A stretch of 35,929 bases of DNA from a bacterium (GCA_017615095.1 JAGAAT010000022.1:1-35929), one strand, 5' to 3'; positions 99 through 34,320 are shown, numbered from the stretch's first letter. Notes: generated by a model from the sequence alone, not told the origin. Made by a program: numbers and translations.

Positions 99-2003
99 CT
101 AAAATTCAAAAACTATGCCGAATTCGAACCTGTGAACGCTCATATCGGAGAGATCGAAGCTCTTCGATTTGCCGAAATCATCTATCTTTTCAAAGCGGTA
201 ATCGACAAAAAGTGCCGTGTCGGTTATGCCTCCGTCAGCCATTTTCTTTGCCGAACTCGGGTCGATCCAGTTCAGCGAGACCTTGAGACCGACAGTACCG
301 TGGAAGCCGAAAGTACCGCCGCTCTGAGTGGTTTTCCCCTTGTCGCGGACCCACCATGTGAAGTAGTCCAGACCTACAGAAATGACCGGATAGAGCGGGA
401 AGGAGTAGACCGGGCGGAGCTTCGTCTCAGCCATCAGCGGTATAAAGTGCATCGTCGATCTGTCCTTGCTTTTCGTGCCGTCCGACTGGAGCGCCGTGCC
501 TTTGAAACGGGTGTAGCCGATACCGCCGACGAATGACCAGCGGATATAATTTTCGGCAACCGGAACTGCAAAACCGTAGGTCAGCGAAGGCAGATAGCGC
601 ATCTGCGAGCCGGCGACATCCCTGAAGGGCTGACCTTCACCGAACTCGGAGTCGATCTCCTTCGGATAGTAGAATGAGTTCGTGAATGAAAATTCGCCGT
701 GGACGCTGTGCTTCTTCGGCTTTGCCTGAAGGTCGTTCGCACCCAGTACGAGAGCTAAGAATATGAACATCACCGCAACCCCCCTCCTTTTCGGCTTGAG
801 AAGGATGAAGAGCATGAGTGCAAGCCAGAAAATACCGAAAATCCTGCCGGCCGGATCAGTGAGGAACCAGGCGACTGCGATGAGCGGCATCAGCACGGTC
901 CTGGAGAGAGACCTCAACAGCGGAGAGCCCTTGATTATCTCTGCCGGATAGGATCCGTATCTGTAGTAAGCGCCGATAAACGAACGCCCCAGAGCGAAGC
1001 TTGAAAGAAAGAAATCTCTGAAATTCCTGAGTAATTCTACCGCAGGATGGAAGTAGCTGCCGAAACACGCCGTTGCGACGAAACAGAAACCGCCGTCATC
1101 CTTTCCGCCCTTCGAGACGTAGTTGCTCCAAAAACCGAGAGTCGTTACAGCAGAGGCATCGACGCCGATAGTCGCGCTTTCATCAAAGTTGCCGGCAAGA
1201 TCTTCGGCGTAAACTTCGACTCTGTAAGCCTTGTCCGGATCGTTTTCATCGTTGTTGATGAAGGCGTAGCCGTCCTTGCTCTCGACCGTGAACTCCCAGA
1301 TCTTTGCATAAGAATCGGGATCCACCTCGGATTCGAACTTCAAAGTAGCCTCCTTTTCAGAGCCGTTGTGCTTAAAAGTTCCGGTGATCACAGCGTGGTA
1401 CCTGCCGACCGGATCTTTCGAGCTGCCGTCTGCCGTGCTCGGCGGAGCGACGCGGATCAGCATGGAGCCGTCACCGCCCTCGATCTCGATCGTTGACGGA
1501 GCCTTCGGCGGCATGTTGTCGAATGTTACAGAGAGGCTCTTCGAGACAGATGCCGGTTTGCTTGATGAGGAACCGGAGTCGTCGTCATCGTTATCCTCGT
1601 CATCGTCGTCCCCACCGGTACCGTCGAGCTTTACGACCAGATCGACCGAGTACTTGCCGTCGAGAGCCGACTTTTCATCGCTCTGGATATTTTTGTTCTT
1701 CTTCAGAGTGTTGTAAAAATCGAGCCCTGAAAGCTTTATCAGGTTGTTGACCGACGCAAAATCGGAATCGACTCCCGATGCCTCGACCGTATAGTCGCCG
1801 GCGTCCGTAGAAATGACCAGATAAGCCTTGTTGACGCTGTCAACGTCGGGCAGATCGTAGTAGATCTCAAGCTCGCCGTCGTAGTTGAGGTTCCCGTGTT
1901 TAGGCGAAACCGACACGTTTTTCAGCCAGTCCGATGTCGCCGCTTCAAGCTGCAAAACGGCGGCAAACACAGCAAAAATGAACAGAAAAAGCTTTTTATT
2001 CAT
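99..2003 (-). CDS. Secreted multidomain protein of unknown function: signal peptide, two beta-rich (Ig/FN3-like) regions, a CFI-box-like Cys motif with a hydrophobic anchor region, and a C-terminal outer-membrane beta-barrel-like domain
   Basis: 634-aa ORF. GGGAG lies 6 nt upstream of the ATG, which overlaps the asd stop (ATGCATGAATAA). N-terminal signal peptide MNKKLFLFIFAVFAAVLQLEAA. Acidic linker DDDDEDNDDDDSGSSSS. Motif GGFCFVATACFGSYFHPAVELLRNFRDFF is followed by hydrophobic segments and KPKRRG. The last ~205 aa have amphipathic beta-strand patterning and end in FEFGIVFEF; a terminal Phe is typical of OM barrels. Confidence 0.75.
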   Translation of the reverse strand: MNKKLFLFIFAVFAAVLQLEAATSDWLKNVSVSPKHGNLNYDGELEIYYDLPDVDSVNKAYLVISTDAGDYTVEASGVDSDFASVNNLIKLSGLDFYNTLKKNKNIQSDEKSALDGKYSVDLVVKLDGTGGDDDDEDNDDDDSGSSSSKPASVSKSLSVTFDNMPPKAPSTIEIEGGDGSMLIRVAPPSTADGSSKDPVGRYHAVITGTFKHNGSEKEATLKFESEVDPDSYAKIWEFTVESKDGYAFINNDENDPDKAYRVEVYAEDLAGNFDESATIGVDASAVTTLGFWSNYVSKGGKDDGGFCFVATACFGSYFHPAVELLRNFRDFFLSSFALGRSFIGAYYRYGSYPAEIIKGSPLLRSLSRTVLMPLIAVAWFLTDPAGRIFGIFWLALMLFILLKPKRRGVAVMFIFLALVLGANDLQAKPKKHSVHGEFSFTNSFYYPKEIDSEFGEGQPFRDVAGSQMRYLPSLTYGFAVPVAENYIRWSFVGGIGYTRFKGTALQSDGTKSKDRSTMHFIPLMAETKLRPVYSFPLYPVISVGLDYFTWWVRDKGKTTQSGGTFGFHGTVGLKVSLNWIDPSSAKKMADGGITDTALFVDYRFEKIDDFGKSKSFDLSDMSVHRFEFGIVFEF

Positions 2004-3018: not shown

Positions 3019-3155
3019 TTTTCCCTCCATAAAATTGCGTTACACTATAGAAAAATATTAAAAAAACAATTAGGTATAGACTAAAAATGGACAATTTTTT
3101 TACATTGTTGTAAAAGAGGGCGTTTTTTGGCTGTAAAAATATTTCGGAGGATAAA

Positions 3156-3551
3156 ATGAGCGAAAAAATCAGAGTTCTTATTGCAAAACCGGGACTTGAC
3201 GGTCACGACAGAGGTGCAAAATTCGTAGCGAGAGCGTTGAGAGACGCCGGAATGGAGGTCATTTATACAGGTCTGAGACAGACTCCCGAAGCTATCGCCA
3301 ATGCAGCGATCCAGGAAGACGTCGATGCAGTCGGTCTTTCGATCCTGAGCGGAGCGCACAACACCCTTCTCCCCAAAGTCGTTGAGATCCTCAAAGAAAA
3401 ACATGCAGAAGATATAGTCGTTTTCGGCGGCGGCGTTATCCCCGAGAGCGATATCCCCTTCCTCAAGGAACACGGGATCCAGGCTGTCTTCACACCCGGC
3501 ACAAAATCCGAGGACATCATTTCATTCGTTCAGAGCGTAGTCCACAAATAA
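3156..3551 (+). CDS. Cobalamin (B12)-binding domain protein, resembling the small subunit / C-terminal domain of methylmalonyl-CoA mutase
   Basis: 131 aa. Contains [40 protein letters not shown] with the DxHxxG B12-binding signature (DGHDRG), and later GLSILSGAH and [15 protein letters not shown] lies upstream of the ATG. Confidence 0.9.
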
Positions 3552-5353: not shown

Positions 5354-5785
5354 TTACTTTTTAACGCAACTGGATTTTATTGTGTACACGAATAAAATCA
5401 AGAGCAAAATATTTAAATTGTAAAAGGCTGCCGTCATCCTGAAAATCGTGAAGCGATAGGTAAAAAAGAGATGAAAAACCAATAAAATGTAGAGTGATGT
5501 CGCGACACCGAGCATAGCGCCGCCGATCACCAAAAGCTTACGGAGATTCGGTGATCTCTCCGCCTGAAGCCCCATGATTATCAAAAAAAAGGAGTTTATG
5601 GAGAAAAACAGATCGGGAAACGATCCGATAGTCGGCAGAAGGACCGGCATATCCCGAAGATAGAGCCAGAGAACGGTATCGAAAACAAAGCCCGCAACAG
5701 CGGTCACAAGCATCACGCGATTTAAACCTATAAGTGAATCTATCCGCTCAGCCAGGCTATCAAGGAATTTCACAGCCAACTCCAC
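5354..5785 (-). CDS. Small integral membrane protein, about 4 TM segments, function unknown
   Basis: The ORF has four hydrophobic segments and I recognise no family. The start is uncertain. GTG at 5785 is the ORF-track start. GTG at 5773 has GGAG 6 nt upstream and forms a GTGA overlap with the stop of the AEC gene. Confidence 0.5.
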   Translation of the reverse strand: MELAVKFLDSLAERIDSLIGLNRVMLVTAVAGFVFDTVLWLYLRDMPVLLPTIGSFPDLFFSINSFFLIIMGLQAERSPNLRKLLVIGGAMLGVATSLYILLVFHLFFTYRFTIFRMTAAFYNLNILLLILFVYTIKSSCVKK

Positions 5786-7438: not shown

Positions 7439-10400
7439 TCACTTTCCGATCACAAGGCTGCCGTTTGCCGGTATCGTGACCTGACCGTTCTGAACGTTGA
7501 CGGTGCCGCCTTCGAAACTCGTGAAGGTGCCGCTGACGCCGCAGCTGCCGGTGTAGGAGCTTCCGCCCTTGTTGATGCCGGCGATAACGACATCGCCGTT
7601 ATATTCGAACTTGTAGAGCCATACGTTGCTGTCGGAGTGGCAGGTCGTCCTCGTCGAATGACGGAGTGCTGGGTGCAGCTTTCTGAATTTGCCGAGCTTT
7701 TTGACGTGGTCGAGCGCAGCCTGTTCGTCGCCGGAAAGCCCCGTAAACTTCATGACAGTACGTCTGCCGCCGTCGAAGCCGTTTTCAGCCTTGCCGTAGG
7801 TACCGATATCGTCGCCCTGATAGAGCATCGGGATGTTGATCGGCGAAGTGAGAAGCAGGGTCTGAGCATGTTTCAGCTTGTTGTAGTCGCCGTTGCAGTA
7901 GGTAAGCGCACGGTCCTGATCGTGGTTGCCGAAGAAGTTGCCCATTACGGCTCCCGGATAACCGCCGCCGTTGCCGCCGACACTCTGGTAGGTCGTATCG
8001 AGGTTGATCGCCCGCGATGCCAGGTCGGCGTAGTTGCCTCCGTAGAAAATATTGTCACGGACATTGTAGAAATACTGGTCGCTGACCTGTCCCTGGACCA
8101 TGTTCGGTCTCGTGTGGTAGCGGGGCCAGTCGCCGCCGAGAGATTCGCCGACGGTGTAGAAAACTTCTGCCTCATCAGGCATATCGTGGTTTTCGACTGT
8201 CGTCTCGATCCTGTTTTTGATAGCCGTTCTGAGCTCGATTATGAAGATATCGTCCATGTGCTTGAGGGCGTCTGCACGGAAGCCGTCAAGGTTGAAATTC
8301 TGGATGAGCCAGATCGCATGGTCGATAACGGTCTTGCGGGCATCAGGATTCGAACCGTAGTTGAAATCCGGCATGTAGGGCGTGAACCAGCAGTCGATCC
8401 TGTGGTCTTCCCAGTTGTTGCCGTCGGCGCAGGCTACCTGCGGATAGAACCAGCCGTCGTCCTTGTGCAGCTGATAGAGTTTCGCATCGCTGTGGACGTG
8501 GTTAGCCGCGAAATCGGGAACGACCCTGATACCGCGCTCGTGAGCCTTCTCGACAAGCTCGTGGAGCTCAGCTGCCGTACCGAACGCAGTGTCGATGCCC
8601 TCGTTTTCGTAGCCGAGATCGTCATCGAAATTCACGCCTGTCGCAACCGGATGGTATGCGTGGTAGCTCGTGAAGTAGACATCGTTCTGGCTTGAGGAGG
8701 TACCGCCTTTGCTCTCATGGTGCGGGTTGAGTATCGGAGAGCTTATCCAGAGCGCATTCACCCCCATATCGGTGAAGTAGCCTTCTTCGATTTTTTTGAT
8801 TATCCCTCTGAAATCGCCGCCCTTCCACTTTTCGAGATCCTGCGTCACATGCGGGAATTCGCTTGCCGGTACATTGTTGCCGGTATTGCCGTCAAGAAAA
8901 CGGTCAGTCATGATCTGGTAGATGAATGCGTCGCGCCATCCGAAACCGGCGAAATCGACACCGTCGCCTACCCAGACCGGAACGAAGAAGGGCTCGATCT
9001 TGTTGCCGGAAGTATCGACAAGGCGGAAGAGCCAGCTGTACTTGTTAGGTGAAAGCGAAGTCTCATTGATGACGAAACGGCTCGTCTCCTCGTCGTAGAG
9101 GCTTTCCGCGTCCTGGACTTCGTTGTTCATCGTGACCTTCGAAGCTGCAAAATCTATCGGAGCCGCGCCTCTGTAAACAAGTTCGAAATGCAGTGAATCC
9201 GAAGTCTTGGAGTAATTTTCAAGTTCCAGCAGGACCTTCGGGAGAGAGTTGACTGTCGCCTTTCCGGGGTGGTTCGACGCCGAAGTTATGAAGTTCGGAC
9301 CGGGATTGTCGCCTTCGACACCTTTGTCGCAGTACCACCAGGTCGCACCGCCGTCAAGCGAAAATCTGAAAATGTAGATGAAGTTTCCTGCCTTATCGGT
9401 CGGGAAATCTGCCATATATTCGTGGTTGTTGTCACCCGAGTGACCGGAGTTGAAGTCAGCATCGACTTTATTCCAGGTCCCTGCGATAACCGGATATTCC
9501 GCACTGCCGGTCCCCTCTTTGTAGAGCAGTTGAGCCTTCCATTCCGCATGTTGGGGAACTCCTGAACCGGTCTGACCGTCCACCCAGATCTGACCGTATA
9601 CCTTATCGGGATCGTCGCCTTTCATTTTCGTGATCGAGTAGGGCCACTGAACACCGATCCAGCCTGGTTTCTGCGAAGTTATGGCAACACACGAGGTATT
9701 GCTGTCGTAGAATCCGTCCGGGCAGTTGCAGACCGCGCTGCCGCTTTCGACCGTGCAGACGCCGCTGTTTCCGCAGTTCACACCCGCGCAGAGATCTTCA
9801 CGGCAGGCATGTTCAACGATATCGCATGTTTCGCCGCTTCCGCAGTCGGTTTTTACGACGCAGCGCCCCTCAGCAAGCTGACAGTCGCCCTCAGAGCAGG
9901 ATTCCCACTCCTCGCACTCGACATCACGGCAGAGATCAGGAACGCAGTTGAGACCATCCTCGATGTAGCCGTCGTAGCAGTCGCACTTCGCCTCATCGTT
10001 GTCGACTACGCATTTGCCGTAACCGCCGCAGTTCACGCCGTTGCATGGACCCTCTTCACCGGTATCAGTGCCGGTGTCTCCGCCGGGTCCGGTATTTCCG
10101 GTGTCTTCACTGACGCATGTCGGATCGTCATTCTCGAACTTCTCGATGTATCCGGGTTCGCAGTTGCAGTGAAGTCCGCTCTGATAGCCGCTTCCGCTGC
10201 CGTATCCGCTGCCTGCCGCCGCGCCCTCGACACACTCGCCGTGACCGCCGCAGTCGATAAGTTTACACGCTGCCACGCATTTGTGCTCGTCTGTATCGCA
10301 TCTTTGCGTTCCGCTACAGTCTTTATCTTCGTTGCAGTTGCCCGGCAGAGGTCTGCATTCTCCGTTTCTGCACTCCTCCCAGTCGTCACATTCGACTCCG

Positions 10401-10612
10401 TCGCAGGCTTCGCCGCCTTCAACGGTGCAGTCCGGCGGGAATGCGACAGGAACAAAACCCTCTTCACATTCGCAGACCGCATGTCCGGTACTGTCGTTGC
10501 ACTCACCGTGACCGCTGCAGTCAATGCCGTCGCACGGCGAAGCTTCGTTTTTCGATTTGCCGCATGAGAGCATCGCAGCAAAGAGACAAACTAAAATCAA
10601 AAATCTTTTCAT
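7439..10612 (-). CDS. Lipoprotein GH13 alpha-amylase-family glycoside hydrolase with an N-terminal EGF-like/Cys-rich module array
   Basis: Signal peptide plus lipobox MKRFLILVCLFAAMLSC|GK. About 280 aa of Cys-rich modules. GH13 conserved regions: VVPDFAANHVH (I), DGFRADALKHMD (II, nucleophile Asp), TVGESLGG (III) and FFGNHDQDR (IV), preceded by QIMTDRFLDGN. SD GGAGGAG lies upstream. Confidence 0.9.
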   Translation of the reverse strand: MKRFLILVCLFAAMLSCGKSKNEASPCDGIDCSGHGECNDSTGHAVCECEEGFVPVAFPPDCTVEGGEACDGVECDDWEECRNGECRPLPGNCNEDKDCSGTQRCDTDEHKCVAACKLIDCGGHGECVEGAAAGSGYGSGSGYQSGLHCNCEPGYIEKFENDDPTCVSEDTGNTGPGGDTGTDTGEEGPCNGVNCGGYGKCVVDNDEAKCDCYDGYIEDGLNCVPDLCRDVECEEWESCSEGDCQLAEGRCVVKTDCGSGETCDIVEHACREDLCAGVNCGNSGVCTVESGSAVCNCPDGFYDSNTSCVAITSQKPGWIGVQWPYSITKMKGDDPDKVYGQIWVDGQTGSGVPQHAEWKAQLLYKEGTGSAEYPVIAGTWNKVDADFNSGHSGDNNHEYMADFPTDKAGNFIYIFRFSLDGGATWWYCDKGVEGDNPGPNFITSASNHPGKATVNSLPKVLLELENYSKTSDSLHFELVYRGAAPIDFAASKVTMNNEVQDAESLYDEETSRFVINETSLSPNKYSWLFRLVDTSGNKIEPFFVPVWVGDGVDFAGFGWRDAFIYQIMTDRFLDGNTGNNVPASEFPHVTQDLEKWKGGDFRGIIKKIEEGYFTDMGVNALWISSPILNPHHESKGGTSSSQNDVYFTSYHAYHPVATGVNFDDDLGYENEGIDTAFGTAAELHELVEKAHERGIRVVPDFAANHVHSDAKLYQLHKDDGWFYPQVACADGNNWEDHRIDCWFTPYMPDFNYGSNPDARKTVIDHAIWLIQNFNLDGFRADALKHMDDIFIIELRTAIKNRIETTVENHDMPDEAEVFYTVGESLGGDWPRYHTRPNMVQGQVSDQYFYNVRDNIFYGGNYADLASRAINLDTTYQSVGGNGGGYPGAVMGNFFGNHDQDRALTYCNGDYNKLKHAQTLLLTSPINIPMLYQGDDIGTYGKAENGFDGGRRTVMKFTGLSGDEQAALDHVKKLGKFRKLHPALRHSTRTTCHSDSNVWLYKFEYNGDVVIAGINKGGSSYTGSCGVSGTFTSFEGGTVNVQNGQVTIPANGSLVIGK

Positions 10613-10666
10613 ATCTCCTCCAAGTCAAAATTAACTCAAACGGAGGATTATACAGATAAATTCAAT

Positions 10667-13030
10667 TTAGAAAAGAAGAACCGAGCAACCGCCAGACGAA
10701 GATTCCGATTTTTTTTGTGATTTTTTTCTGACGCAGGTGCCGTAATCGCAGTAGCCGTCATCACCTTCGGCTGTTTCGCAGGCACTCCAGTTGAGCGATG
10801 CGTCGCCGACATTGACGATACCCTGGATCTCGTTGCACTCGACACGGCAGCAGGCTCTCGGCTCAGGCATTTCGGGAGCGGTACCGACACAGGAGCCGCC
10901 CGTGCAGACTCCGTCGACAAGGCAGAGCTTGCCGGTCTCGCAGGAACTCCCCTCGTTCAAAGGCTGCTTTTCGCAAAGTCCGTTTTCAGGGTTGCAGACA
11001 CCCTCAGAGCAGAATGAGTCAAGTGAAGAGCAGTCCTTAGCGCCGATCGCTGTGCAGGTCCCGCTCTGGCAGATCTTTGCTTCGAAGCATCTGTTTTCCG
11101 GCATACCGCAGAAGATGCCGTCGGGGATATTTCTCGGCTGGCAGCTCCTGGAAGCCTCGTCACAGCTCAACTCAGTACAGGGATCATCGCTTTTGTCGCA
11201 GACAAGAGCATCGAAATTGCTCTCGCAGAAGCCGTTGACGCAGCTTTCAGTACCGGTGCAGAAGAGCCCGTCGTCGCAGTCGGAATCGCTTCCGCACTCA
11301 CTGACTCCCAGCCTGAGAGTCGGATCGCCGAGGTAGTTCGTCTCGTACTTGACCGTCAGAAGGACATCGTAGTCTGACCAGACCTCCTTTTTCGCAAAAA
11401 GATCGACTGCCGGGATCTCGTTCTTCAGAAGCGCCGTCGTGAATGATGCGCCGTACGAGAAAATATCGTTCGAACTCAGGTCATAGCCCGGGAAGATGGC
11501 TCCGTAGGAGACCTGTGAAGCTCCGACGACACCGACAGCAGTGTTTAAAAGCACCGAGTATGCAAGGCTGCCCGCCCTTTCGATCGTTCCGTTGAGACAG
11601 CTGCCCTGAAAAACGAAGGGCACTTCGCTCTTAATCCGCTTGGTCATCGGCACATCTACAAAGACCTTCGAATAGTTGAGGTCCGTGTAGGTATCGGGAT
11701 AGCCGTTTCCGTTGCGGTCGCGTTCCCAGATCGTCCTGACCGAGTATGTCGGCTCTCCGTGCCCGATCCAGTAGACAAGACCGTTGCCGGCGTTCCAGTT
11801 TTCCAGAACGGAGTCGTAGGTTATCGGATCGTTCAGGGTAAATTCCGACGGCGAAAGCCCCTCGGATTCGACCAGAGTCTTGAATGAAAAGGGCTCTGCC
11901 AGCACCGTATCCTCAAGGTACTCGACTACATAGGCGCCGTCCATCTTCGGCATATTGAAGATGCCGTCCTGCATCTCGTAGTAGGATATCGTAGTCGGGA
12001 AGAGGAAACGACGTCTGTTTTCAGCCTTCGACGGGCTCTCTTTGATGAAGTCGATCGTCCGTTTCAGGATCCTGTCGGTATTTTCCGGGTTCGTGCCGTA
12101 GATCGGGATCCTGCCTACGACCCACTCGAAATTAAGGTGGATGTAGTCTATGTGTTCGCCGTATACGCCGTTTTCCGAGCTGTCGATATCTTCGGTGAGC
12201 TCTGCATAAAAAGCATCGGTCGGAACAAGCTCGTAGCTCTGATCCTCGGCATCTCCGGGACGGACGACAAGCATCGGGACATCCTCTCCGCCCGGATCGG
12301 GATTCGCGATTATCAGAAGGAAATCATAGTTTTTGTAGACGCCTCTCAGGTATTCGCGGATCTTTTTGAAGCGCTCGACCGCCTTGAGATTCCCGCCGCC
12401 GTAGCTGTCTTCGGTCGCGACATCGACGTTGAAACCGAGCGACCTTTTAAGCGCGATATAGTTCTCGAGCTGCGTCGATTTTTCAACGAACGAGCGGTTA
12501 GTAAGGATGAGCATCGACCTGCCCTCCCCAAGCGCCGCAAGCGGTTCAAGAGTAAGGTTTTCGAAGTGGAAGCGGACTCTCTTAAGCTTCGTAACTTTGT
12601 TTTCGCCGGTCGGGAGCACGGGATAAAAATTGAACGAAATCAAATCCTTTCCGCGTTTAGAGCTCTTTGCATAGTCAAAAGTGAAGTTCTTGAGCGTAGG
12701 GATCCTCGTCTCTCTCACGGATGCCGGAACGACCGGTTTCATGTCGTAAAGCCTGTAGAGCGGAGCACCTTTTCTCAGCGGCGCCGGAAGCGTGATATCC
12801 TCCTTCGCGAGGACCTCGATGCGCGTCACCCTGCCCGAAAAGTAGAGCTTCCGGTAGGGCAGGACATAATTTTCACCCGTTCCGTCAAGCTCGTAGCCTT
12901 CGATCGCCGGAGTCACGAAACCGCCGGTTTCCGAAAGCGTCAGACCGGGCACCTCGACATCGAGATATGCCGCGCTCAGAAACGTGAAAGAGAGCAAAAC
13001 AGTTATGAAAGCAAAATGGATCACCTTCAT
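10667..13030 (-). CDS. Secreted gingipain-like (peptidase C25 family) cysteine protease with a C-terminal Cys-rich stalk and a short GCSVLLF tail
   Basis: Signal peptide MKVIHFAFITVLLSFTFLSAA. Candidate His/Cys dyad contexts are VYWIGHGEPT and FVFQGSCLNG, followed by NYLGDPTLRL as at the end of C25 catalytic domains. About 190 aa are Cys-rich (aa 579-766). The protein ends KKSQKKSESSSGGCSVLLF-stop. SD GGGAGG lies upstream. Confidence 0.78.
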   Translation of the reverse strand: MKVIHFAFITVLLSFTFLSAAYLDVEVPGLTLSETGGFVTPAIEGYELDGTGENYVLPYRKLYFSGRVTRIEVLAKEDITLPAPLRKGAPLYRLYDMKPVVPASVRETRIPTLKNFTFDYAKSSKRGKDLISFNFYPVLPTGENKVTKLKRVRFHFENLTLEPLAALGEGRSMLILTNRSFVEKSTQLENYIALKRSLGFNVDVATEDSYGGGNLKAVERFKKIREYLRGVYKNYDFLLIIANPDPGGEDVPMLVVRPGDAEDQSYELVPTDAFYAELTEDIDSSENGVYGEHIDYIHLNFEWVVGRIPIYGTNPENTDRILKRTIDFIKESPSKAENRRRFLFPTTISYYEMQDGIFNMPKMDGAYVVEYLEDTVLAEPFSFKTLVESEGLSPSEFTLNDPITYDSVLENWNAGNGLVYWIGHGEPTYSVRTIWERDRNGNGYPDTYTDLNYSKVFVDVPMTKRIKSEVPFVFQGSCLNGTIERAGSLAYSVLLNTAVGVVGASQVSYGAIFPGYDLSSNDIFSYGASFTTALLKNEIPAVDLFAKKEVWSDYDVLLTVKYETNYLGDPTLRLGVSECGSDSDCDDGLFCTGTESCVNGFCESNFDALVCDKSDDPCTELSCDEASRSCQPRNIPDGIFCGMPENRCFEAKICQSGTCTAIGAKDCSSLDSFCSEGVCNPENGLCEKQPLNEGSSCETGKLCLVDGVCTGGSCVGTAPEMPEPRACCRVECNEIQGIVNVGDASLNWSACETAEGDDGYCDYGTCVRKKSQKKSESSSGGCSVLLF

Positions 13031-29916: not shown

Positions 29917-31575
29917 CTAATTCTTCCAGATAACAAGATAGCTCGAAAGGTATATTTCGGCACGGTAACCGTCGGGATTCGTAACGACCGGCGAATAGGT
30001 CTTTCCGTCGAGAAGTGCCGAATAATCAAAGGTGTTCTCGCCGCTGACAAGTGAATCGGTGACATCGAACTCGATCAGCTTGACATCCAGACCAGGGCAC
30101 CAGCCTGCTCTTCCGTAGGGCCAGGAACCGTACTGATTCGGGACTACGCCGTCAGTTACCATTTTGTAGCATCCTTTTGAAGTTCCCGCGTTGGCAAAGT
30201 CGAACTGAAAGTCGTTCCCGTTTACGCTGAAAATCGATTCGAACGGGCAGAATTCAGCGCAGTTAGCCTGCTCCGAGCCGTTTCCGTGACCGGTGATAAA
30301 GGCATAAATTTTGGCACTTTTCACATCCGTAAGTTCAAAGTTCAGAGTCTCGAACTTGTCGTTGTACTCTTCCGTGAACTGCTCTGTCTGGTGGTAAAGC
30401 CTTATTATTTCAGACGGTTGTTCCGTATCGTCAGCAATATAGAGGAAATCCAGGTTGTTGACGTAGTTGTCGCCGTCGACAGTCAGCCTGAGCTTCGCGT
30501 TCTGTCTGCCCGAAAGCATCGGGATCAGCGGAGAGATGTCGGTAAGCCACTTTCCGCTTCTGCCGTAGGTGGTTATCCAGCGGCCGATTTCGATCGAGCA
30601 CTCCTCTTCACCGTCGCCGCAGAGGAAAAGACGTTCGAGTCTGTCCCACTCGCAGTCCGCCGGATTGCCGCAAAGCTGTTCAAAGAGTATGTAAAGCGAA
30701 CCGTTGCCGTCGAAATCATCAAAATCGACGTTGAAGTATATGTTTTTCGTCCACCCCTCGGTCTCGAAAGGAACACCTTCAAGCCCTTTGATTTTTTTGG
30801 TTTTTTGTTCGTTTTCGCTCAAAAAGCCCTCAAGTTCCCATTCGTAGTTGTAGTATTCGGCCTCCTTCATTATGTTTTCGATCATCGGGTCGGTCGAAGA
30901 CTGCCAGCTCGCGAAAGAACCTCCTGCGCGGAGCCTCTGGAAACGGTCGATACCGAGGAAAACGCTGCTATTTTCTTTAGCCCAATCGCTGAGCCAGCAG
31001 TCGATCCCGGCAAGCGGCTTCGAAACGATGTGGATACGTTTGCGGAGTTCAACGTTGCCCGTCACATCGGCAGCCTCTTCGATATTCTCTCTGATTTCGG
31101 CGATTTTCGTCTCGAAGGTATCGCTTTTGTCCGTGTAAACCGCGAAAAAATAGTGAACATTCATCGGTGAAGCGTCAAACAGGTTCATCAGCGGAGTAGA
31201 CCACATCTTGTTGTCGCTGTTCATCGAACCGGCTCTGTAGATGACGAAAATGTAGCTGTCATCGTGAGTGTAGTTCGACGCGAAATTCCAATCGCCATCC
31301 TCTGTCGGAAGCGTGAAATCTCCTGCGATATCACCGAACTCAGTACCGTACGGACCTTCTGAGAACTCTTCACTGGGAGTATTTGCGTCAAGTCCGGGAT
31401 CGTCATCTGCCGGAGTCTCATCATCGCCGTCATAAGCCGGAACCGCATCATTGTCGGACTCAGGAGCATCGCCGTCGGATCCATCATTTTTTGAATCTCC
31501 GCCGCAAGAGACGAGCAAAAGCGCAAAAAGCAGCACAACAGCCAAATAAAGATGTAAGGTGTCGGATTTTTTCAT
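29917..31575 (-). CDS. Lipoprotein with a PNGase F-like (peptide-N-glycosidase F) two-domain C-terminal region and an N-terminal redoxin-like domain that lacks CxxC
   Basis: Lipobox FALLLVSC|GG followed by an acidic linker. CGNPADCEWDR...IEIGRWITTYG compares with PNGase F GGCDPWDR...YEIGRFITPY. ITGHGNGSEQANCAEFC...YGRAGWCPGLDV compares with PNGase F ISGWGH...RGCAEWC...DRAGWCPGMAV. The PNGase F sequence is from memory. SD AGGAG lies upstream. Confidence 0.78.
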   Translation of the reverse strand: MKKSDTLHLYLAVVLLFALLLVSCGGDSKNDGSDGDAPESDNDAVPAYDGDDETPADDDPGLDANTPSEEFSEGPYGTEFGDIAGDFTLPTEDGDWNFASNYTHDDSYIFVIYRAGSMNSDNKMWSTPLMNLFDASPMNVHYFFAVYTDKSDTFETKIAEIRENIEEAADVTGNVELRKRIHIVSKPLAGIDCWLSDWAKENSSVFLGIDRFQRLRAGGSFASWQSSTDPMIENIMKEAEYYNYEWELEGFLSENEQKTKKIKGLEGVPFETEGWTKNIYFNVDFDDFDGNGSLYILFEQLCGNPADCEWDRLERLFLCGDGEEECSIEIGRWITTYGRSGKWLTDISPLIPMLSGRQNAKLRLTVDGDNYVNNLDFLYIADDTEQPSEIIRLYHQTEQFTEEYNDKFETLNFELTDVKSAKIYAFITGHGNGSEQANCAEFCPFESIFSVNGNDFQFDFANAGTSKGCYKMVTDGVVPNQYGSWPYGRAGWCPGLDVKLIEFDVTDSLVSGENTFDYSALLDGKTYSPVVTNPDGYRAEIYLSSYLVIWKN

Positions 31576-31622: not shown

Positions 31623-34199
31623 TCAAAGGATCAGAGCAGAGCAGCCGGAGGATTTCTTTTTGGTTGAATTTCCGTTACCGTTTTCGAACATGCAGTACTG
31701 TGAACAGCCGTCGCCGTCCATTCTGTTGCCGTCATCGCACTGCTCTCCCGGATCGACGTAACCGTTTCCGCAGTTCGCATGGTCTCCGCTGCTACCGCTT
31801 CCGCCTTCGTTGCCGCCGCTTCCGCCGCCGTTACCCGGATCGTAGCAGCTTGAACGATCCCAGCTGAGGCAGTCGCTGGCGCACTTCGCGTTTCCGCCCT
31901 CAGGAGCACCCGCAAGCATCTTGCAGGGAATAGTTTCGGAGTCGCAGACCTCGCCCGTATCGACATTCTTGTTGCCGCAAAGTGATCCGCCTCCGCCCGA
32001 GCATGTCGAGGTGTCGTAGCCGCGGCAGTCAGCTCTGCACATTGCATAACCGTCCGTGAAGTTGCTGTCGATGCTGTGGCATGTCTTCGTACCGCCGTCG
32101 CAGACCTCGCCCTCCTCCTTGACGCCGTTTCCGCAGTTCGCGGTCGCAACAGTTCCGGAAGGCAGTATCTTCTGGGCGATGCAGGAATAACCCTCTCTGA
32201 CAGTGTTGTAGGAGCACTTCGCGATGCAGTGACCTTCATAACATTCGACCTTGCTCGTGCCGTTGTAGCAGTCGGTATTCGAGTTGCAGTTGGCAGAGCA
32301 GTAACCGCCGTTCCAGCCCTCTCCGGTGAGGCAGACAGGATTCGCAGCAGTGTTGATGCAGTCGGATGCTTCGCTGCACGCCGATCCGGCACGTCCGTTT
32401 CCGCCGCTTGCGCAGTCGTCATCGACCGTACCGCTGCAGTCGTCATCCTTGCCGTTGTATTCGTCGTAACATCCGTCGATCTTTGCCGTCGAGATGCAGG
32501 CTCCGCACGTCCCGTTTTTGGCACCGACAAGCATTGCGTTCGCATCGACGACACCGAAGCCGAAGCAGGGTGAATGTTCAGCCGAACCGCTCGCAAGCCA
32601 CTCGTCGGACTGAGTCGTCCAGCCGCCTTCGGAGCAGCTCTTTGTCGTTTTGAACGCTGAGGACTTTACGCAGTTCATCGCACCCGAGAAGCTGAGTTCC
32701 GGAGCACCCGCGAGCATAAGAGCTACAGCTCCAGCCGCAACAGGCGTAGCCGCACTCGTTCCGCTGAATCCGCTCGTGTAGTCGCCGTTGCTGTCAAGGC
32801 TTCCGAGGCAGTTGTAGGAGTTGCACGCATAGCCGTACTGGTTGCCCTGGATATCGGTAGTCGCAGCACCGGCGCCGGCGCTGATATCTACCTCGGCACC
32901 GTAGTTCGAGTAGCTTGCCATACTGCCGTTCGACTCGAGAGCGCTGACCGTCAGCATGTTGTTATCCTTTAAAAATGCCTGGTTGGATGTCGGGCAGTGA
33001 GAGTTTCCCGCAGCCCACAAAAAGATGGTGCCCTTGCCGCCGCGGCCGTTCGAAATACCGTAAGTGATACCCTGCGAACTGCTGTTGTCTGCCGGGCATG
33101 TCGTGCAGCCTCCGTAGTTGTTGGAGTCCTGGCAGCCCCAGCTGTTGTTTACGACCCAGGCGCCGTTATCGACTGCGTGTTTGATAGCCTTGTAGGTATC
33201 GCCGGACTGGTATGTCGAAAGGAATCTGATCGGGATGATCGGACAGCCCCAGCATGATCCTGCAACACCGATCCCGTTGTTTGTCTTCGCAGCAGCAAGA
33301 CCTGCGCAGGCAGTTCCGTGCGGAACGGATTCATGGTCGTCCTGGCTTGTCATCGGAGCGCCGCCCGTATTTCCGACAAGGTCGATACCGAGATTCGCGA
33401 GAACGTTCAGATCGGGGTGGGTCAGATCGACGCCGCTGTCGATGATGGCGATCCTGACATTATCATTTCCCTCGCCTGTCTCTGTATCCCATGCAGACGG
33501 TGAATTGATCTGCGTAAGGTGCCACTGGCTCGAAAAATAGGGATCGTTCGGAGTCACCTTTCTCTCGTTGTAGAACCACGGCCAGTTCGGCTGTGCCCAG
33601 TGGACAAGCCTGCGCTCGTAGAGCATGTTCGCGAAGGCAAAGGGATCTACACCGACCGGAAGCTCGACCGAATAGAAGTTGTCGTCAACGACTTCGACCA
33701 CCTTCAGGTTGAACATGTCCATGATCCTGTACTGCTCTTCAACAGGAGTGGACTCGTAGAAGTGGATCCTCATCGTTCCGTCGAGAACGATCAGATGATC
33801 CGGAGCGTAGTATGTCAAAACCGGCCACGCAGCAACGTTTTTCGCCGCGAGAAGGTTCCTGACCTGCATCCAGTTCGCTCTGTCTGACTTGTCGAGCGCG
33901 ATCCGGAAAGCCCTGTAATTATCCTGATCGTATGTGACTTCGCCGAGCATATCGGCAATTTTGATGCCGTTGAACTCGACAGCATCAAGCATTTTAAGGT
34001 TTACACTGTGCGGGATCGCGATCTGATCATAAAGCTGAAGCAGGAACTGCGGTCCCAGATTCATGTGATAGTAAAACGTGTCATAAAGTCTGCCGTCCTC
34101 TCTTTCTACCAACTGTCCGAGGACCGGTTTCGGTTCGGCAGCAGAAAGTGACATAACAAAAAGCGACAAAAAAAGCGCCCAAGCCGCTCGCTTAAGCAT
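31623..34199 (-). CDS. Secreted subtilisin-like serine protease (peptidase S8) with a C-terminal Cys-rich stalk and a short GCSALIL tail
   Basis: Signal peptide MLKRAAWALFLSLFVMSLSAA. Triad contexts IAIIDSGVD (Asp), HGTACAG (His) and GTSAATPVAAGAVALM (Ser). aa 569-840 are Cys-rich and include three CGN(G/K)...GExCD repeats. The protein ends STKKKSSGCSALIL-stop. I chose the ATG at 34199 because GGAGG lies 5 nt upstream. The track start is 34211. Confidence 0.9.
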   Translation of the reverse strand: MLKRAAWALFLSLFVMSLSAAEPKPVLGQLVEREDGRLYDTFYYHMNLGPQFLLQLYDQIAIPHSVNLKMLDAVEFNGIKIADMLGEVTYDQDNYRAFRIALDKSDRANWMQVRNLLAAKNVAAWPVLTYYAPDHLIVLDGTMRIHFYESTPVEEQYRIMDMFNLKVVEVVDDNFYSVELPVGVDPFAFANMLYERRLVHWAQPNWPWFYNERKVTPNDPYFSSQWHLTQINSPSAWDTETGEGNDNVRIAIIDSGVDLTHPDLNVLANLGIDLVGNTGGAPMTSQDDHESVPHGTACAGLAAAKTNNGIGVAGSCWGCPIIPIRFLSTYQSGDTYKAIKHAVDNGAWVVNNSWGCQDSNNYGGCTTCPADNSSSQGITYGISNGRGGKGTIFLWAAGNSHCPTSNQAFLKDNNMLTVSALESNGSMASYSNYGAEVDISAGAGAATTDIQGNQYGYACNSYNCLGSLDSNGDYTSGFSGTSAATPVAAGAVALMLAGAPELSFSGAMNCVKSSAFKTTKSCSEGGWTTQSDEWLASGSAEHSPCFGFGVVDANAMLVGAKNGTCGACISTAKIDGCYDEYNGKDDDCSGTVDDDCASGGNGRAGSACSEASDCINTAANPVCLTGEGWNGGYCSANCNSNTDCYNGTSKVECYEGHCIAKCSYNTVREGYSCIAQKILPSGTVATANCGNGVKEEGEVCDGGTKTCHSIDSNFTDGYAMCRADCRGYDTSTCSGGGGSLCGNKNVDTGEVCDSETIPCKMLAGAPEGGNAKCASDCLSWDRSSCYDPGNGGGSGGNEGGSGSSGDHANCGNGYVDPGEQCDDGNRMDGDGCSQYCMFENGNGNSTKKKSSGCSALIL

Positions 34200-34320
34200 T
34201 TTGACCTCCATCTATACCAATATATAAAATACATCCGAAAAAGAACATACAACCTTCGGGTTTTACTTTTTTTCAGGCGCTTTTCAAGTAAACTGTCTGG
34301 TCATTGGCTGGAGGTGATAT

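What the first reader, a model, noticed from the sequence alone, without database searches (positions are those of the whole stretch)
10670..10729. Very short C-terminal tail (KK..KK-SESSS-GGCSVLLF-stop) on the secreted C25-like protease: candidate undescribed sorting or lipidation signal (instance 1 of 2)
Seen in sequence:
- The C25-like protease ends ...CVRKKSQKKSESSSGGCSVLLF-stop. The S8 protease 21 kb away ends ...NSTKKKSSGCSALIL-stop.
- The two tails share Lys-rich then Ser-rich segments, an invariant G-C-S, then [VA]-L-[LI]-[FL]. The Cys is exactly 6 residues from the C-terminus in both.
- Both proteins have Sec signal peptides, and in both a Cys-rich repeat stalk immediately precedes the tail.
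- The DNA after each stop is a normal intergenic spacer with an SD for the next gene, so the tails are not truncated ORFs.

Established knowledge:
- Known C-terminal sorting signals (LPXTG, PEP-CTERM, MYXO-CTERM, GlyGly-CTERM, T9SS CTD) need a full TM helix plus a basic cluster, or a folded domain of about 80 aa. Five hydrophobic residues cannot span a membrane.
- As I recall, G-C-[SAG] is the signature tripeptide of MYXO-CTERM. A Cys followed by a few aliphatic residues at the extreme C-terminus resembles the logic of eukaryotic CAAX boxes.

Curiosity: read backwards, the tail (FLLVSCGG) matches the lipobox core of the neighbouring lipoprotein (LLLVSCGG at 31504-31527).

Inference: this may be a compact recognition tag for C-terminal processing or Cys modification.
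Basis: partly seen in the sequence, partly recalled or inferred. Interest (0 to 1): 0.7.

Follow-up and report, generated by a model that had tools for sequence, protein, structure and literature searches.

The report
Minimal cysteine C-terminal sorting tail
Secreted proteases and adhesins of an uncultured rumen phylum (UBP6) all end in a conserved 6-9 residue tail (Ser-Ser-Gly-Cys-Ser plus four oily residues) where their relatives in myxobacteria carry a full membrane-spanning MYXO-CTERM anchor signal, so it is very probably an undescribed, unusually short surface-sorting signal.

Summary
The gingipain-like C25 protease (10667-13030, minus strand) ends ...SSSGGCSVLLF-stop. The S8 protease (31623-34211, minus strand) ends ...KKKSSGCSALIL-stop.

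- **Conservation:** the tail [S/K-rich linker]-S-S-G-C-[S/A]-(3-6 mostly apolar residues)-COOH is kept in 74/75 C25, 78/83 S8 and 87/91 M36-like orthologues, down to 31-37% identity. Codons vary synonymously.
- **Cargo:** it occurs on at least 9 unrelated secreted architectures in candidate phylum UBP6 and relatives. It sits only at the C-terminus.
- **Structure:** AlphaFold predicts the linker and tail as disordered.
- **Link to MYXO-CTERM:** remote homologues of the same S8 and M36 families end in canonical MYXO-CTERM (GC/GCGC, transmembrane helix, RRRR), scoring above the model's cut-off. Other homologues carry T9SS tails. The short tails have the MYXO-CTERM signature, including GCGC variants, but no helix and no basic cluster. 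No NCBIfam model matches them, and no paper in the searched library describes them.

Best reading: a transmembrane-less, CAAX-like relative of MYXO-CTERM that anchors exported hydrolases and adhesins through the invariant Cys. The chemistry and the enzyme are inferred, not shown. I could not find or test a partner enzyme.

The parts
10667..13030 (-). Gene for the secreted gingipain-like C25 cysteine protease (787 aa), cargo instance 1. NCBI record MBO4440687.1, annotated 'hypothetical protein'.
   Evidence: Pfam PF01364, E 2e-22. The AF2 model best matches RgpB 1cvr and Kgp 4rbm, plus gingipain prodomains. His-Gly and Gly-Ser-Cys-Leu-Asn-Gly columns are invariant. Cluster look-up gave the NCBI record.
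12971..13030 (-). N-terminal Sec-type signal peptide, MKVIHFAFITVLLSFTFLSA | AY. It has no lipobox.
   Evidence: Read from the sequence and a hydrophobicity heuristic. No dedicated predictor was available.
10733..11296 (-). Cys-rich stalk (about residues 579-766), disintegrin-like, between the protease domain and the linker.
   Evidence: About 30 invariant Cys columns in the orthologue alignment. Weak profile hit to the Cys-rich domain of 3k7n. Modelled with pLDDT about 50-85.
10694..10732 (-). Lys/Ser-rich low-complexity linker, VRKKSQKKSESSS.
   Evidence: It varies among orthologues in sequence and length. pLDDT is about 32.
10670..10693 (-). The tail proper, G-G-C-S-V-L-L-F-COOH. The invariant Gly-Cys are codons 10688-10690 and 10685-10687.
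   Evidence: Gly and Cys are invariant and Ser(+1) is nearly invariant in 25 aligned orthologues and in 122 non-redundant tails.
10667..10669 (-). TAA stop codon directly after Phe787. A 54-nt spacer follows, with Shine-Dalgarno GGAGGAG (10615-10621) for the amylase lipoprotein gene.
31623..34211 (-). Gene for the secreted S8 subtilase (862 aa), cargo instance 2.
   Evidence: Pfam PF00082, E 1.3e-39. 83 UBP6-type orthologues found.
34140..34211 (-). N-terminal signal peptide of the S8 protease, (MEVK)MLKRAAWALFLSLFVMSLSA | AE.
   Evidence: Read from the sequence and the heuristic.
31677..31775 (-). Myxococcus-type cysteine-rich acidic repeat (TIGR02232), the last module of the S8 stalk before the linker.
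   Evidence: NCBIfam TIGR02232, 44-51 bits against a cut-off of 20.8.
31647..31667 (-). Lys/Ser-rich linker, STKKKSS.
31626..31646 (-). The tail proper of instance 2, G-C-S-A-L-I-L-COOH. The Cys codon is 31641-31643. The TGA stop is at 31623-31625.
   Evidence: The tail is conserved in 78 of 83 orthologues.

Best explanation
The tail is a lineage-wide C-terminal protein-sorting and anchoring signal of candidate phylum UBP6 and some related uncultured lineages. It consists of the MYXO-CTERM signature motif ([S]-G-C-[S/A], sometimes G-C-G-C), followed by only 3-6 mostly apolar residues and the free carboxylate. The transmembrane helix and Arg cluster of all described small prokaryotic sorting signals are absent.

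**Proposed mechanism (shown or inferred):**
1. The cargo is exported by Sec through an ordinary N-terminal signal peptide. Shown at sequence level only.
2. The catalytic or adhesive domains and the disulfide-rich stalk fold outside the cytoplasm. A flexible Ser/Lys/Asp/Glu-rich linker presents the tail. Shown: the linker is low-complexity and predicted disordered.
3. A membrane-associated enzyme recognises G-C-S plus the short apolar C-terminus, much as a CAAX box is read from the C-terminal end. It modifies the invariant Cys thiol, most likely with a lipid. Inferred by analogy with MYXO-CTERM and CAAX.
4. An endopeptidase removes the few residues distal to the Cys. A CPBP/Rce1-type myxosortase relative is the obvious candidate. 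Inferred; not found and not testable here.
5. The protein stays tethered to the cell surface by its modified C-terminal Cys. This is the mirror image of an N-terminal lipoprotein anchor. Inferred from the cargo types, which are surface hydrolases and collagen-like adhesins, and from these cargo using other anchors elsewhere.
For: **Conservation**
- The tail is present in 74/75 C25 orthologues (37-99% identity), 78/83 S8 orthologues and 87/91 M36-like orthologues (31-100% identity).
- Residues after the Cys number 5 in 71, 59 and 69 cases respectively.
- The consensus of 122 non-redundant tails is S-S-G-C-S-[VAL]-[TLIV]-[VIL]-[FL], with G and C invariant.
- Codons for S, G and C vary freely, so selection acts on the peptide.

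**Cargo independence.** The tail is found on: C25, a second C25 type, S8, a second S8 type, an M36/fungalysin-like peptidase, a DUF7151 plus collagen-repeat protein, a DUF7948/SBBP/choice-of-anchor-D/collagen protein, an Amidase_3 plus CarboxypepD_reg protein, and small proteins with no Pfam hit. Up to three tail genes lie within 10 kb.

**Position and chance**
- The motif is specific to the C-terminus: 0.0005 expected, 25 seen, 1 internal occurrence.
- Of 71 metagenome matches to the tail-plus-stop DNA pattern, 17 close ORFs of at least 97 codons, 16 of them at least 170 codons or cut by the contig end. The rest are noise ORFs of 104 codons or fewer.

**Signal peptides.** 29 of 32 tail proteins have signal-peptide-like N-termini. 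Of the other three, two have truncated or mis-started ORFs (L013, L026) and the third (L022 14064-16463) has a doubtful N-terminal extension. One further protein carries an ambiguous lipobox-like N-terminus.

**Alternative anchors in homologues**
- Remote S8 homologues carry MYXO-CTERM. P0184 scores 25.8 bits on TIGR03901 (cut-off 20) and 18.5 bits on TIGR03382 (cut-off 15.85).
- Remote M36-like homologues score 23-35 bits on TIGR03901.
- One S8 homologue has a precomputed PF18962 T9SS tail (P0192). A Fibrobacter C25 homologue has a weak Por_Secre_tail hit.
- GCGC variants of the short tail occur in several lineages.

**Structure and context**
- The AF2 model gives pLDDT about 32 and no secondary structure for the last 17 residues.
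- In the same loci, other exported proteins are N-terminal lipoproteins.

**Literature**
- All four described Cys-bearing sorting signals are tripartite, and the shortest is 20 aa (10.1101/2023.06.07.544157).
- MrtX cleavage of MYXO-CTERM needs the Cys residues (PMC11980579).
Against: - No step after export is shown for these proteins. There is no proteomic, genetic or biochemical evidence.
- Lipidation of the Cys is only predicted even for MYXO-CTERM itself (PMC11980579).
- Without a transmembrane helix, nothing obvious holds the substrate at the membrane, so recognition must differ from that proposed for myxosortases.
- No CPBP/Rce1-like ORF was found in about 606 kb of tail-lineage DNA. Genes next to tail genes are housekeeping. 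That sample is only a fraction of one genome and is largely syntenic, so this is weak evidence either way.
- Position +1 after the Cys is Ser, not aliphatic. The Cys is usually 6th from the end, not 4th. The cargo is exported. It is therefore not a canonical CAAX box.
- Signal peptides were judged by a heuristic only.
Confidence: 0.55

Rival explanations
1. The tail is a retention or secretion signal that is recognised but not lipidated. Either the apolar C-terminus ending in Phe/Leu docks into a PDZ-type or outer-membrane receptor or translocon, or the free Cys forms a disulfide with a surface-anchored partner. The protein would be held or routed without cleavage.
For: - The end is nearly always F, L or I with a free carboxylate, the kind of ligand that PDZ domains and outer-membrane assembly factors read. 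This is general knowledge.
- The cargo already contains many disulfides.
- The lineage appears diderm: MlaD and proteins ending like outer-membrane beta-barrels are present.
- T2SS/T4P ATPase and platform genes lie near one S8 locus.
Against: - An invariant G-C-[S/A], GCGC variants and replacement by MYXO-CTERM in homologues point to the same chemistry as MYXO-CTERM. There, cleavage is shown (PMC11980579).
- The hydrophobic pattern does not match the alternating beta-signal of outer-membrane proteins.
- Some lineages end in D, N, R or M rather than an aromatic or aliphatic residue.
Confidence: 0.2
2. The tail is the substrate of a sortase- or PorU-like transpeptidase. This enzyme would cleave at G-C-S and join the new C-terminus to a surface glycan, lipid head group or peptidoglycan. 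The universally conserved gingipain/PorU-family C25 protease of these genomes could itself be that enzyme.
For: - The C25 family includes the T9SS sortase-like PorU (general knowledge).
- The C25 gene was found in all 27 UBP6-type loci, mostly as a single copy (L016 has two tandem paralogues). It sits in housekeeping neighbourhoods: PBP1A, or mraZ-rsmH-ftsL-PBP.
- It carries the tail itself, as PorU carries a CTD.
- Homologous cargo in Bacteroidota/Fibrobacter-type lineages use the T9SS.
Against: - The model's best structural matches are the cargo proteases RgpB and Kgp, including their prodomains, not a sorting enzyme.
- No co-variation between the C25 gene and the tail could be tested, because every locus was retrieved through the C25 gene.
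- An invariant Cys in the substrate is not a feature of known transpeptidase signals.
- Homologues in other lineages carry MYXO-CTERM, which is processed by a CPBP protease.
Confidence: 0.1
3. The tail is a short C-terminal pro-peptide. A C-terminal processing protease (S41/Prc/CtpA type) would remove it to activate or release the enzymes, with no anchoring role.
For: Apolar C-termini are the classical recognition feature of Prc/Tsp/CtpA proteases (general knowledge). Many cargo are proteases that could need latency control.
Against: - The tail also sits on collagen-like adhesins, an amidase and small non-enzymatic proteins.
- It lies at the end of a long disordered linker, far from the active site.
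- The invariant Gly-Cys is not explained.
- Homologues carry anchor signals, not pro-peptides, at the same place.
Confidence: 0.08
4. The similarity is a chance or structural by-product: the end of the Cys-rich stalk domain, or a nucleotide-level element such as a terminator overlapping the stop codon.
For: In the two window proteins a Cys-rich stalk does precede the tail.
Against: - The tail follows acidic or Ser-rich linkers on proteins with no such stalk.
- It is predicted disordered.
- Synonymous codon variation, with G-C-S kept, excludes a DNA or RNA element.
- The chance expectation is 0.0005.
Confidence: 0.02

Closest known systems
MYXO-CTERM sorting domain (TIGR03901/TIGR03382) processed by myxosortase MrtX/MrtC/MrtP (CPBP family)
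   Same: - Extreme C-terminal position on Sec-exported surface hydrolases and adhesins.
- An invariant Cys in a G-C-[S/A/G] signature, with frequent GCGC variants.
- A low-complexity linker precedes the signature.
- The same cargo families are involved: S8, M36-like and Cys-rich-repeat proteins. Remote homologues of the very same proteins carry true MYXO-CTERM.
   Different: - There is no transmembrane helix and no Arg cluster, only 3-6 residues after the Cys.
- The MYXO-CTERM HMMs do not score it.
- The organisms are UBP6 and other uncultured lineages, not Myxococcota or Bradymonadales.
- A cognate myxosortase was neither found nor testable.
Eukaryotic CAAX box with Rce1/Ste24 processing
   Same: - A Cys close to the free C-terminus, followed by a few aliphatic residues and ending mostly in Phe or Leu.
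- No transmembrane segment.
- Rce1 belongs to the same CPBP superfamily as the myxosortases, and cleaves distal to a lipid-modified Cys (10.1101/2023.06.07.544157).
   Different: - The Cys is typically 6th from the end, not 4th.
- Position +1 is Ser or Ala.
- The proteins carry signal peptides, so the tail is extracytoplasmic. CAAX prenylation is cytosolic.
CGP-CTERM (Thermococcales), the shortest described Cys-bearing sorting signal
   Same: It has an invariant Cys and a very short signal, and is preceded by a low-complexity region.
   Different: CGP-CTERM is still tripartite, about 20 aa with a membrane-spanning stretch and basic end. It is archaeal, and its signature is C-G-P rather than G-C-S.
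Bacterial lipoprotein signal peptide and lipobox (Lgt/LspA pathway)
   Same: The arrangement is mirror-image. The tail reads linker-G-G-C-S-V-L-L-F-COOH. The neighbouring lipoprotein reads NH2-...L-L-L-V-S-C-G-G-linker. Both place a Cys between a flexible linker and apolar residues. In these loci, exported proteins carry either one or the other.
   Different: - The tail is at the C-terminus and its apolar part is only 4-6 residues.
- The -3 position is Ser, not Leu/Val/Ile.
- Lgt recognition needs a membrane-embedded h-region (general knowledge).
T9SS C-terminal domain (Por_Secre_tail) of gingipains and other Bacteroidota/Fibrobacterota cargo
   Same: The cargo classes are the same: gingipain-like C25, S8 and M36 peptidases. 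The role, surface attachment of secreted hydrolases, is presumably the same.
   Different: The CTD is a folded domain of about 75-80 aa with no conserved Cys. The tail here is 6-9 residues and disordered.
NCBIfam NF058595 'lipo-invert putative C-terminal anchoring domain'
   Same: Judging by its name only, it is a putative C-terminal anchor conceived as an inverted lipoprotein signal. This shows the concept is under curation.
   Different: It is a 113-position model. Its only hit here is a sub-threshold match (E 0.087, 13 bits against a cut-off of 37) to the N-terminal signal peptide of the PNGase-like lipoprotein. None of the tail proteins matches it. What it models could not be inspected.

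Membership tests
Small prokaryotic C-terminal sorting signals (Haft's eight attributes, 10.1101/2023.06.07.544157 section 5) | 1. [quoted passage not shown] | tested here: met
   It always abuts the stop codon. There is 1 internal occurrence in 144,721 residues.
Small prokaryotic C-terminal sorting signals (Haft's eight attributes) | 2. [quoted passage not shown] | tested here: met
   There are 2 in this 36-kb window; 3 in L004, 3 in L072/L078/L085 and 2 in L016; 4 in L102 and 3 in L103. Full-genome counts could not be made.
Small prokaryotic C-terminal sorting signals (Haft's eight attributes) | 3. [quoted passage not shown] | tested here: met
   In 122 non-redundant tails: S at -2 in 102, G at -1 in 122, C in 122, S at +1 in 108.
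Small prokaryotic C-terminal sorting signals (Haft's eight attributes) | [quoted passage not shown] | tested here: not met
   Only 3-6 residues follow the Cys in the three main cargo families, and up to 9 in distant lineages. No Cys-bearing tripartite end was found in 380 UBP6 genes.
Small prokaryotic C-terminal sorting signals (Haft's eight attributes) | 5. A cluster of basic residues at the very end. | tested here: not met
   Tails end in F, L or I, and rarely in D, N, M or R. Lys residues lie upstream of the Cys, not downstream.
Small prokaryotic C-terminal sorting signals (Haft's eight attributes) | 6. An N-terminal signal peptide on most members. | tested here: met
   29 of 32 by a hydrophobicity heuristic. 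The exceptions are two truncated or mis-started ORFs and one ORF with a doubtful N-terminal extension. No SignalP was available.
Small prokaryotic C-terminal sorting signals (Haft's eight attributes) | 7. Members otherwise unrelated to each other. | tested here: met
   At least 9 architectures by Pfam and NCBIfam.
Small prokaryotic C-terminal sorting signals (Haft's eight attributes) | 8. Homologues in other lineages lack the signal or carry a different sorting signal. | tested here: met
   S8 and M36-like homologues carry MYXO-CTERM above its cut-off. S8 homologue P0192 has PF18962. A Fibrobacter C25 homologue has a weak Por_Secre_tail hit.
MYXO-CTERM (TIGR03901.2 / TIGR03382) | HMM score above the curated cut-off (20 bits; 15.85 bits). 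| tested here: not met
   There was no hit for the window proteins, for isolated tails at E up to 10, or for other short-tail proteins. Positive controls scored 23-35 bits.
MYXO-CTERM (TIGR03901.2 / TIGR03382) | Signature motif with an invariant Cys (G-C-[S/A/G], often GCGC). | tested here: met
MYXO-CTERM (TIGR03901.2 / TIGR03382) | A cognate myxosortase (CPBP core domain, NF040914) encoded in the same genome. | not testable with these tools
There was no CPBP-like ORF in about 606 kb of loci, which is too small a sample to conclude anything.
Eukaryotic-type CAAX box | Cys exactly 4th from the C-terminus, two aliphatic residues, cytosolic substrate. | tested here: not met
   The Cys is 6th from the end in about 80% of tails; the range across lineages is 3-9 residues after the Cys. 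Position +1 is Ser or Ala. The proteins have signal peptides.
T9SS C-terminal domain | A folded C-terminal domain of about 75-80 aa (PF18962 / TIGR04183). | tested here: not met
   There was no such Pfam or NCBIfam hit on the window proteins. The last 17 residues are disordered in the model.
Peptidase family C25 (the cargo of instance 1) | C25 catalytic domain with the His/Cys dyad. | tested here: met
   PF01364, E 2e-22. The His (G-H-G) and Cys (G-S-C-L-N-G) columns are invariant. Foldseek matches RgpB at E 1.5e-12.

The most novel reading that the evidence does not exclude
This is the first natural prokaryotic, extracytoplasmic CAAX-like box. A 6-9 residue tail would be sufficient, without any membrane-spanning segment or basic cluster, to direct Cys lipidation and trimming of Sec-exported proteins and tether them to the surface of a diderm cell.

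That would imply one of two things. Either CPBP/myxosortase-type processing does not need a transmembrane substrate, or a new enzyme system reads the free C-terminus in the periplasm. It would also show how a tripartite MYXO-CTERM can be reduced to its signature motif, or how it grew from one.
Probability: 0.35. Interest if true: 0.85.

Novelty: new variant of a known kind. Interest (0 to 1): 0.72.

Why it matters
**For protein-sorting biology**
- Every small C-terminal sorting signal described in bacteria and archaea is tripartite: motif, transmembrane helix, basic cluster. This covers LPXTG, PEP-CTERM, PGF-CTERM, GlyGly-CTERM, MYXO-, JDVT-, Synerg- and CGP-CTERM. That architecture is central to current models of how intramembrane sorting enzymes find their substrates.
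- A signal that keeps only the Cys signature and a handful of apolar residues, yet is conserved on hundreds of orthologues and many cargo types, challenges that rule.
- It bridges MYXO-CTERM and the eukaryotic CAAX box. The author of the myxosortase study explicitly flagged that gap as open.

**For annotation and application**
- It gives a simple regular expression for predicting the surface proteome (proteases, collagen-like adhesins, an amidase) of UBP6, an uncultured rumen phylum whose proteins are mostly annotated 'hypothetical'.
- It offers a very short candidate tag for surface display, if the enzymology is worked out.

Tried and rejected
1. **Tail-only profile search of the 5.8-billion-protein database.** Local tests showed that true tails score only 17-23 bits, giving E about 10-1000 at that database size, whatever the profile design. 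Abandoned.
2. **Exact look-up of the window's C25 protein in the contig index.** Not on record. The cluster look-up later showed that the window is an NCBI MAG contig.
3. **Search for a partner enzyme in the neighbourhood.**
   - Window genes are housekeeping.
   - Conserved neighbours of the C25 gene are DapH-like, YgjV-like, an HD-GYP/MshEN protein, mraZ-rsmH-ftsL-PBP, thymidine-phosphorylase-like and radical-SAM-like genes.
   - Multi-pass membrane ORFs in the loci are Rnf, MatE, EamA, SecY, ComEC, PMT, UbiA and similar.
   - A CPBP motif scan (EExxxR...FxxxH...HxxxN/D) was negative in about 606 kb.
   - Neighbourhoods of short-tail S8 genes in other lineages were also negative.
4. **F2, the gene downstream of C25.** Its N-terminus suggested a T2SS ATPase. 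It is an HD-domain/MshEN protein instead.
5. **The M36-like tail protein or the collagen-like tail protein as orthologues of the window's lipoprotein or CAP-domain neighbours.** No similarity.
6. **Profile search of the PDB with the C25 alignment.** Only a weak hit to a snake-venom Cys-rich domain. The fold search was needed to see the gingipain relationship.
7. **Literature searches.** 'lipo-invert', 'inverted/reverse/C-terminal lipobox' and UBP6 biology turned up nothing relevant.
8. **C25 protease as a PorU-like sorting enzyme.** Considered, and kept only as a low-probability rival.

Full report
**1.
- The ORF 10667-13030 (minus strand, 787 aa) is a Peptidase_C25 protein (Pfam E 2e-22). Its last 21 codons (10670-10732) read VRKKSQKKSESSSGGCSVLLF, followed by TAA.
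- The ORF 31623-34211 (minus strand, 862 aa) is a Peptidase_S8 protein with a Myxococcus-type Cys-rich repeat. It ends STKKKSSGCSALIL-TGA.
- Both have signal-peptide-like N-termini and Cys-rich stalks. Each is followed by a short spacer with a Shine-Dalgarno site for the next gene.
- No other ORF in the window ends this way.
- The reversed-lipobox curiosity is real, but LLLVSCGG lies at 31498-31521, six bases from the coordinates given.

**2. The tail is conserved where everything around it varies.**
- A search with the C25 protein found 75 orthologues at 37-99% identity, all from uncultured 'bacterium' MAGs. 74 of them end in G-C-[S/A/L] plus 5-7 residues, and 71 have exactly five residues after the Cys. 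The one exception looks frameshifted.
- The S8 protein has 83 orthologues of the same kind, and 78 have the tail.
- A third family, an M36/fungalysin-like metallopeptidase, was chosen because it lies next to S8 in related genomes. It was queried without reference to its tail. 87 of its 91 orthologues at 31-100% identity have the tail.
- Over 122 non-redundant tails the consensus is [K/S]-S-S-S-G-C-S-[V/A/L]-[T/L/I/V]-[V/I/L]-[F/L]-COOH. Gly and Cys are invariant.
- The upstream linker changes in length and composition: Lys/Ser-rich, or Asp/Glu-rich.
- Codons for the conserved Ser, Gly and Cys vary freely among genomes. Selection is therefore on the peptide, not on a DNA or RNA element.

**3. 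It is independent of cargo and specific to the C-terminus.** Evidence came from three sources: loci fetched around C25 orthologues, a metagenome scan for DNA encoding S-G-C-S-h-T-[V/I]-F-stop, and neighbourhoods of S8 orthologues. The same tail closes:
- a second type of C25 and a second type of S8;
- the M36-like peptidase;
- a protein of about 317 aa with DUF7151 and collagen repeats;
- a 917-aa DUF7948/beta-propeller/choice-of-anchor-D/collagen protein;
- an Amidase_3 plus CarboxypepD_reg protein (with G-C-A-C);
- two small paralogues with no Pfam match.

In rumen genomes, three tail genes sit within 10 kb.

Of the 71 metagenome matches, 17 close ORFs of at least 97 codons. 16 of those are at least 170 codons or cut by the contig end. 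The rest lie in noise ORFs of 104 codons or fewer, about the number expected by chance.

From amino-acid composition, the strict motif is expected 0.0005 times at the ends of 380 genes. It was seen 25 times, and only once internally in 144,721 residues.

29 of 32 tail proteins have signal-peptide-like N-termini. The other three have truncated, mis-started or doubtfully extended ORFs. One further protein has an ambiguous lipobox-like N-terminus.

**4. It is not part of a fold.** An AlphaFold2 model of the C25 protein has mean pLDDT 81.8. It resembles gingipains RgpB and Kgp with their prodomains (Foldseek E 1.5e-12). Its last 17 residues, linker plus tail, have pLDDT about 32 and no secondary structure.

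**5. The link to MYXO-CTERM is the key result.**
- More distant members of the same S8 family, several labelled Myxococcota, end in G-C-[S/A]...hydrophobic helix...RRRR. The curated MYXO-CTERM models score them: P0184 gets 25.8 bits on TIGR03901 (cut-off 20) and 18.5 bits on TIGR03382 (cut-off 15.85).
- Distant members of the M36-like family end in GCGC...helix...RRRR and score 23-35 bits on TIGR03901.
- Short tails with the double-Cys GCGC signature exist, for example GCGCSVVF, GCGCSLVF and GCGCSII. They look like a MYXO-CTERM cut off a few residues after its signature.
- Other homologues carry T9SS tails (P0192; a weak hit in a Fibrobacter C25). One tail protein carries a 'choice-of-anchor' domain.
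- The tail therefore occupies the slot that recognised anchor signals occupy in homologous cargo. It meets six of the eight attributes used to recognise small C-terminal sorting signals. It fails exactly the two that demand a transmembrane helix and a basic cluster.
- The MYXO-CTERM HMMs and every other NCBIfam model fail to match it, even on isolated tails at E up to 10.

**6. Organism and context.**
- The closest genomes are 'bacterium UBP6_UBA1209/UBA1196/UBA1177' and many rumen MAGs from yak, buffalo, goat, deer and reindeer. More distant relatives come from sediments and digesters.
- The window is an NCBI MAG contig in which the C25 protein is annotated 'hypothetical protein'.
- The window is an ordinary chromosomal stretch: asd, pyrF, PBP1A, rbfA-infB-nusA-rimP, coaBC, coaD, M23.
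- Other exported proteins in these loci are N-terminal lipoproteins. MlaD and proteins ending like outer-membrane beta-barrels suggest a diderm envelope.
- In more distant lineages the tail is slightly longer or ends in polar residues, for example GCSMTTIGR, GCAMILAY, GCSLLTVD and GCSLFIIN. 'Cys sixth from the end' is therefore the mode, not a rule.

**7. Mechanism.**
- For MYXO-CTERM, published work shows that the C-terminus is cleaved by the CPBP protease MrtX in a Cys-dependent way. It is needed for surface anchoring after type II secretion. Lipidation of the Cys is predicted, not shown.
- Rce1, in the same superfamily, trims the three residues after a lipid-modified Cys of a CAAX box that has no membrane helix.
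- By analogy, I propose that the UBP6 tail is read from its free apolar C-terminus, the Cys is modified (probably lipidated), the distal 3-6 residues are removed, and the protein is left tethered by its C-terminal Cys. This would mirror an N-terminal lipoprotein.
- Shown here: the existence, conservation, position, cargo range and homologue replacement pattern of the signal.
- Inferred: every chemical step.
- Rivals: non-covalent or disulfide docking; PorU- or sortase-like transpeptidation, possibly by the conserved C25 protease; and simple C-terminal pro-peptide removal. These are listed with their tests.

**8. The partner enzyme is unresolved.**
- No CPBP-like ORF or other candidate lies near tail genes or anywhere in about 606 kb of related DNA.
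- Whole genomes could not be scanned with the tools at hand.
- For a one-to-many housekeeping system this is expected. The MrtX gene is likewise unlinked to its substrates. It is not evidence against the model, but it leaves the model unproven.

**9. Novelty.**
- Nothing in the searchable literature describes such a tail or the biology of UBP6.
- The shortest described Cys-bearing sorting signal, CGP-CTERM, is 20 aa and still tripartite.
- NCBIfam contains a recent model named 'lipo-invert putative C-terminal anchoring domain' (NF058595). It does not match any tail protein.
- I classify the finding as a new variant of a known kind, the Cys-containing C-terminal sorting signals. Its unusual feature is the loss of the membrane-spanning part. 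If confirmed, that would change how recognition by the sorting machinery is thought to work.

Noticed in passing
window 7439-10612 (-): An alpha-amylase (GH13) lipoprotein with lipobox MLSCGK. It has a long N-terminal stalk of EGF-like Cys-rich modules, and lies 54 nt downstream of the C25 gene with its own Shine-Dalgarno site. It carries the same kind of Cys-rich stalk as the tail proteins, but is anchored from the N-terminus.
   Followed up: partly
window 29917-31575 (-); L104 12609-14237 (+): A PNGase F-like lipoprotein (N-glycanase_C, E 1.5e-23) sits directly downstream of the S8 gene. The S8-PNGase pairing is kept in a UBP6 genome whose S8 is only 54% identical. A peptide-N-glycanase is unexpected in a rumen bacterium.
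   Followed up: partly
window 31498-31575 (-), residues 8-31 of the PNGase-like lipoprotein: Sub-threshold hit (E 0.087, 13 bits against a cut-off of 37) to NCBIfam NF058595 'lipo-invert putative C-terminal anchoring domain'. I could not find out what this recent model describes. No tail protein hits it.
   Followed up: partly
window 10709-10716 and 10721-10727 (-): A8 and A7 homopolymer runs (Lys codons) lie immediately upstream of the tail codons. A slip here would frameshift and remove the tail, switching between an anchored and a released protease. Among orthologues, P0013 has a frameshifted-looking end, and M36-like P0242 has Arg in place of the Cys.
   Followed up: no
L029 6117-8183 (+) (Myxococcota MAG): A C25 homologue ends ...DTGCGCTLVGRSNKGLFRILNL. 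It has the MYXO-CTERM GCGC signature followed by only 16 residues that are not a transmembrane helix. This may be another reduced form within Myxococcota.
   Followed up: no
L102 8183-15432 (+); L103 2190-11764 (+): MAGs of unidentified lineages (GC 45% and 59%) carry clusters of S8 paralogues: three in tandem plus a fourth protein in L102, three spread over about 10 kb in L103. All end in short GCGC or GCS tails (GCGCSII, GCGCVLVGI, GCGCAVIY, GCSLTGVN; GCGCSLLF, GCSLTIL, GCGCSLVF). The short-tail class is therefore wider than rumen UBP6.
   Followed up: partly
L014 8238-9245 (-), L017 7932-8744 (-), L020 2315-3178 (-), L025: A UbiA-family membrane prenyltransferase lies two genes upstream of the C25 gene in four loci. 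It is probably a housekeeping quinone or lipid enzyme. I note it because a prenyl donor enzyme would be relevant to a CAAX-like model.
   Followed up: no
L105/L106 12616-20000 (+): Next to one S8 orthologue lies a 1051-aa CLIPPER-like protein. It ends in a plain C-terminal transmembrane helix plus KK, a different anchor with no Cys. It is followed by T2SSE (PilB/PilT-like), T2SSF and PilS/PilR-like genes.
   Followed up: no
window 34321-35589 (+): A CAP/SCP-domain protein (weak Pfam hit, E 1e-4) with a long Asp/Ser/Gly-rich low-complexity region is divergently placed next to the S8 gene.
   Followed up: no
window 99-2003 (-), 3081-3473 (-), 5354-5785 (-): Three ORFs (634, 130 and 143 aa) have no Pfam match. 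The 143-aa one is conserved in L001 and ends in a hydrophobic stretch plus a basic end.
   Followed up: no
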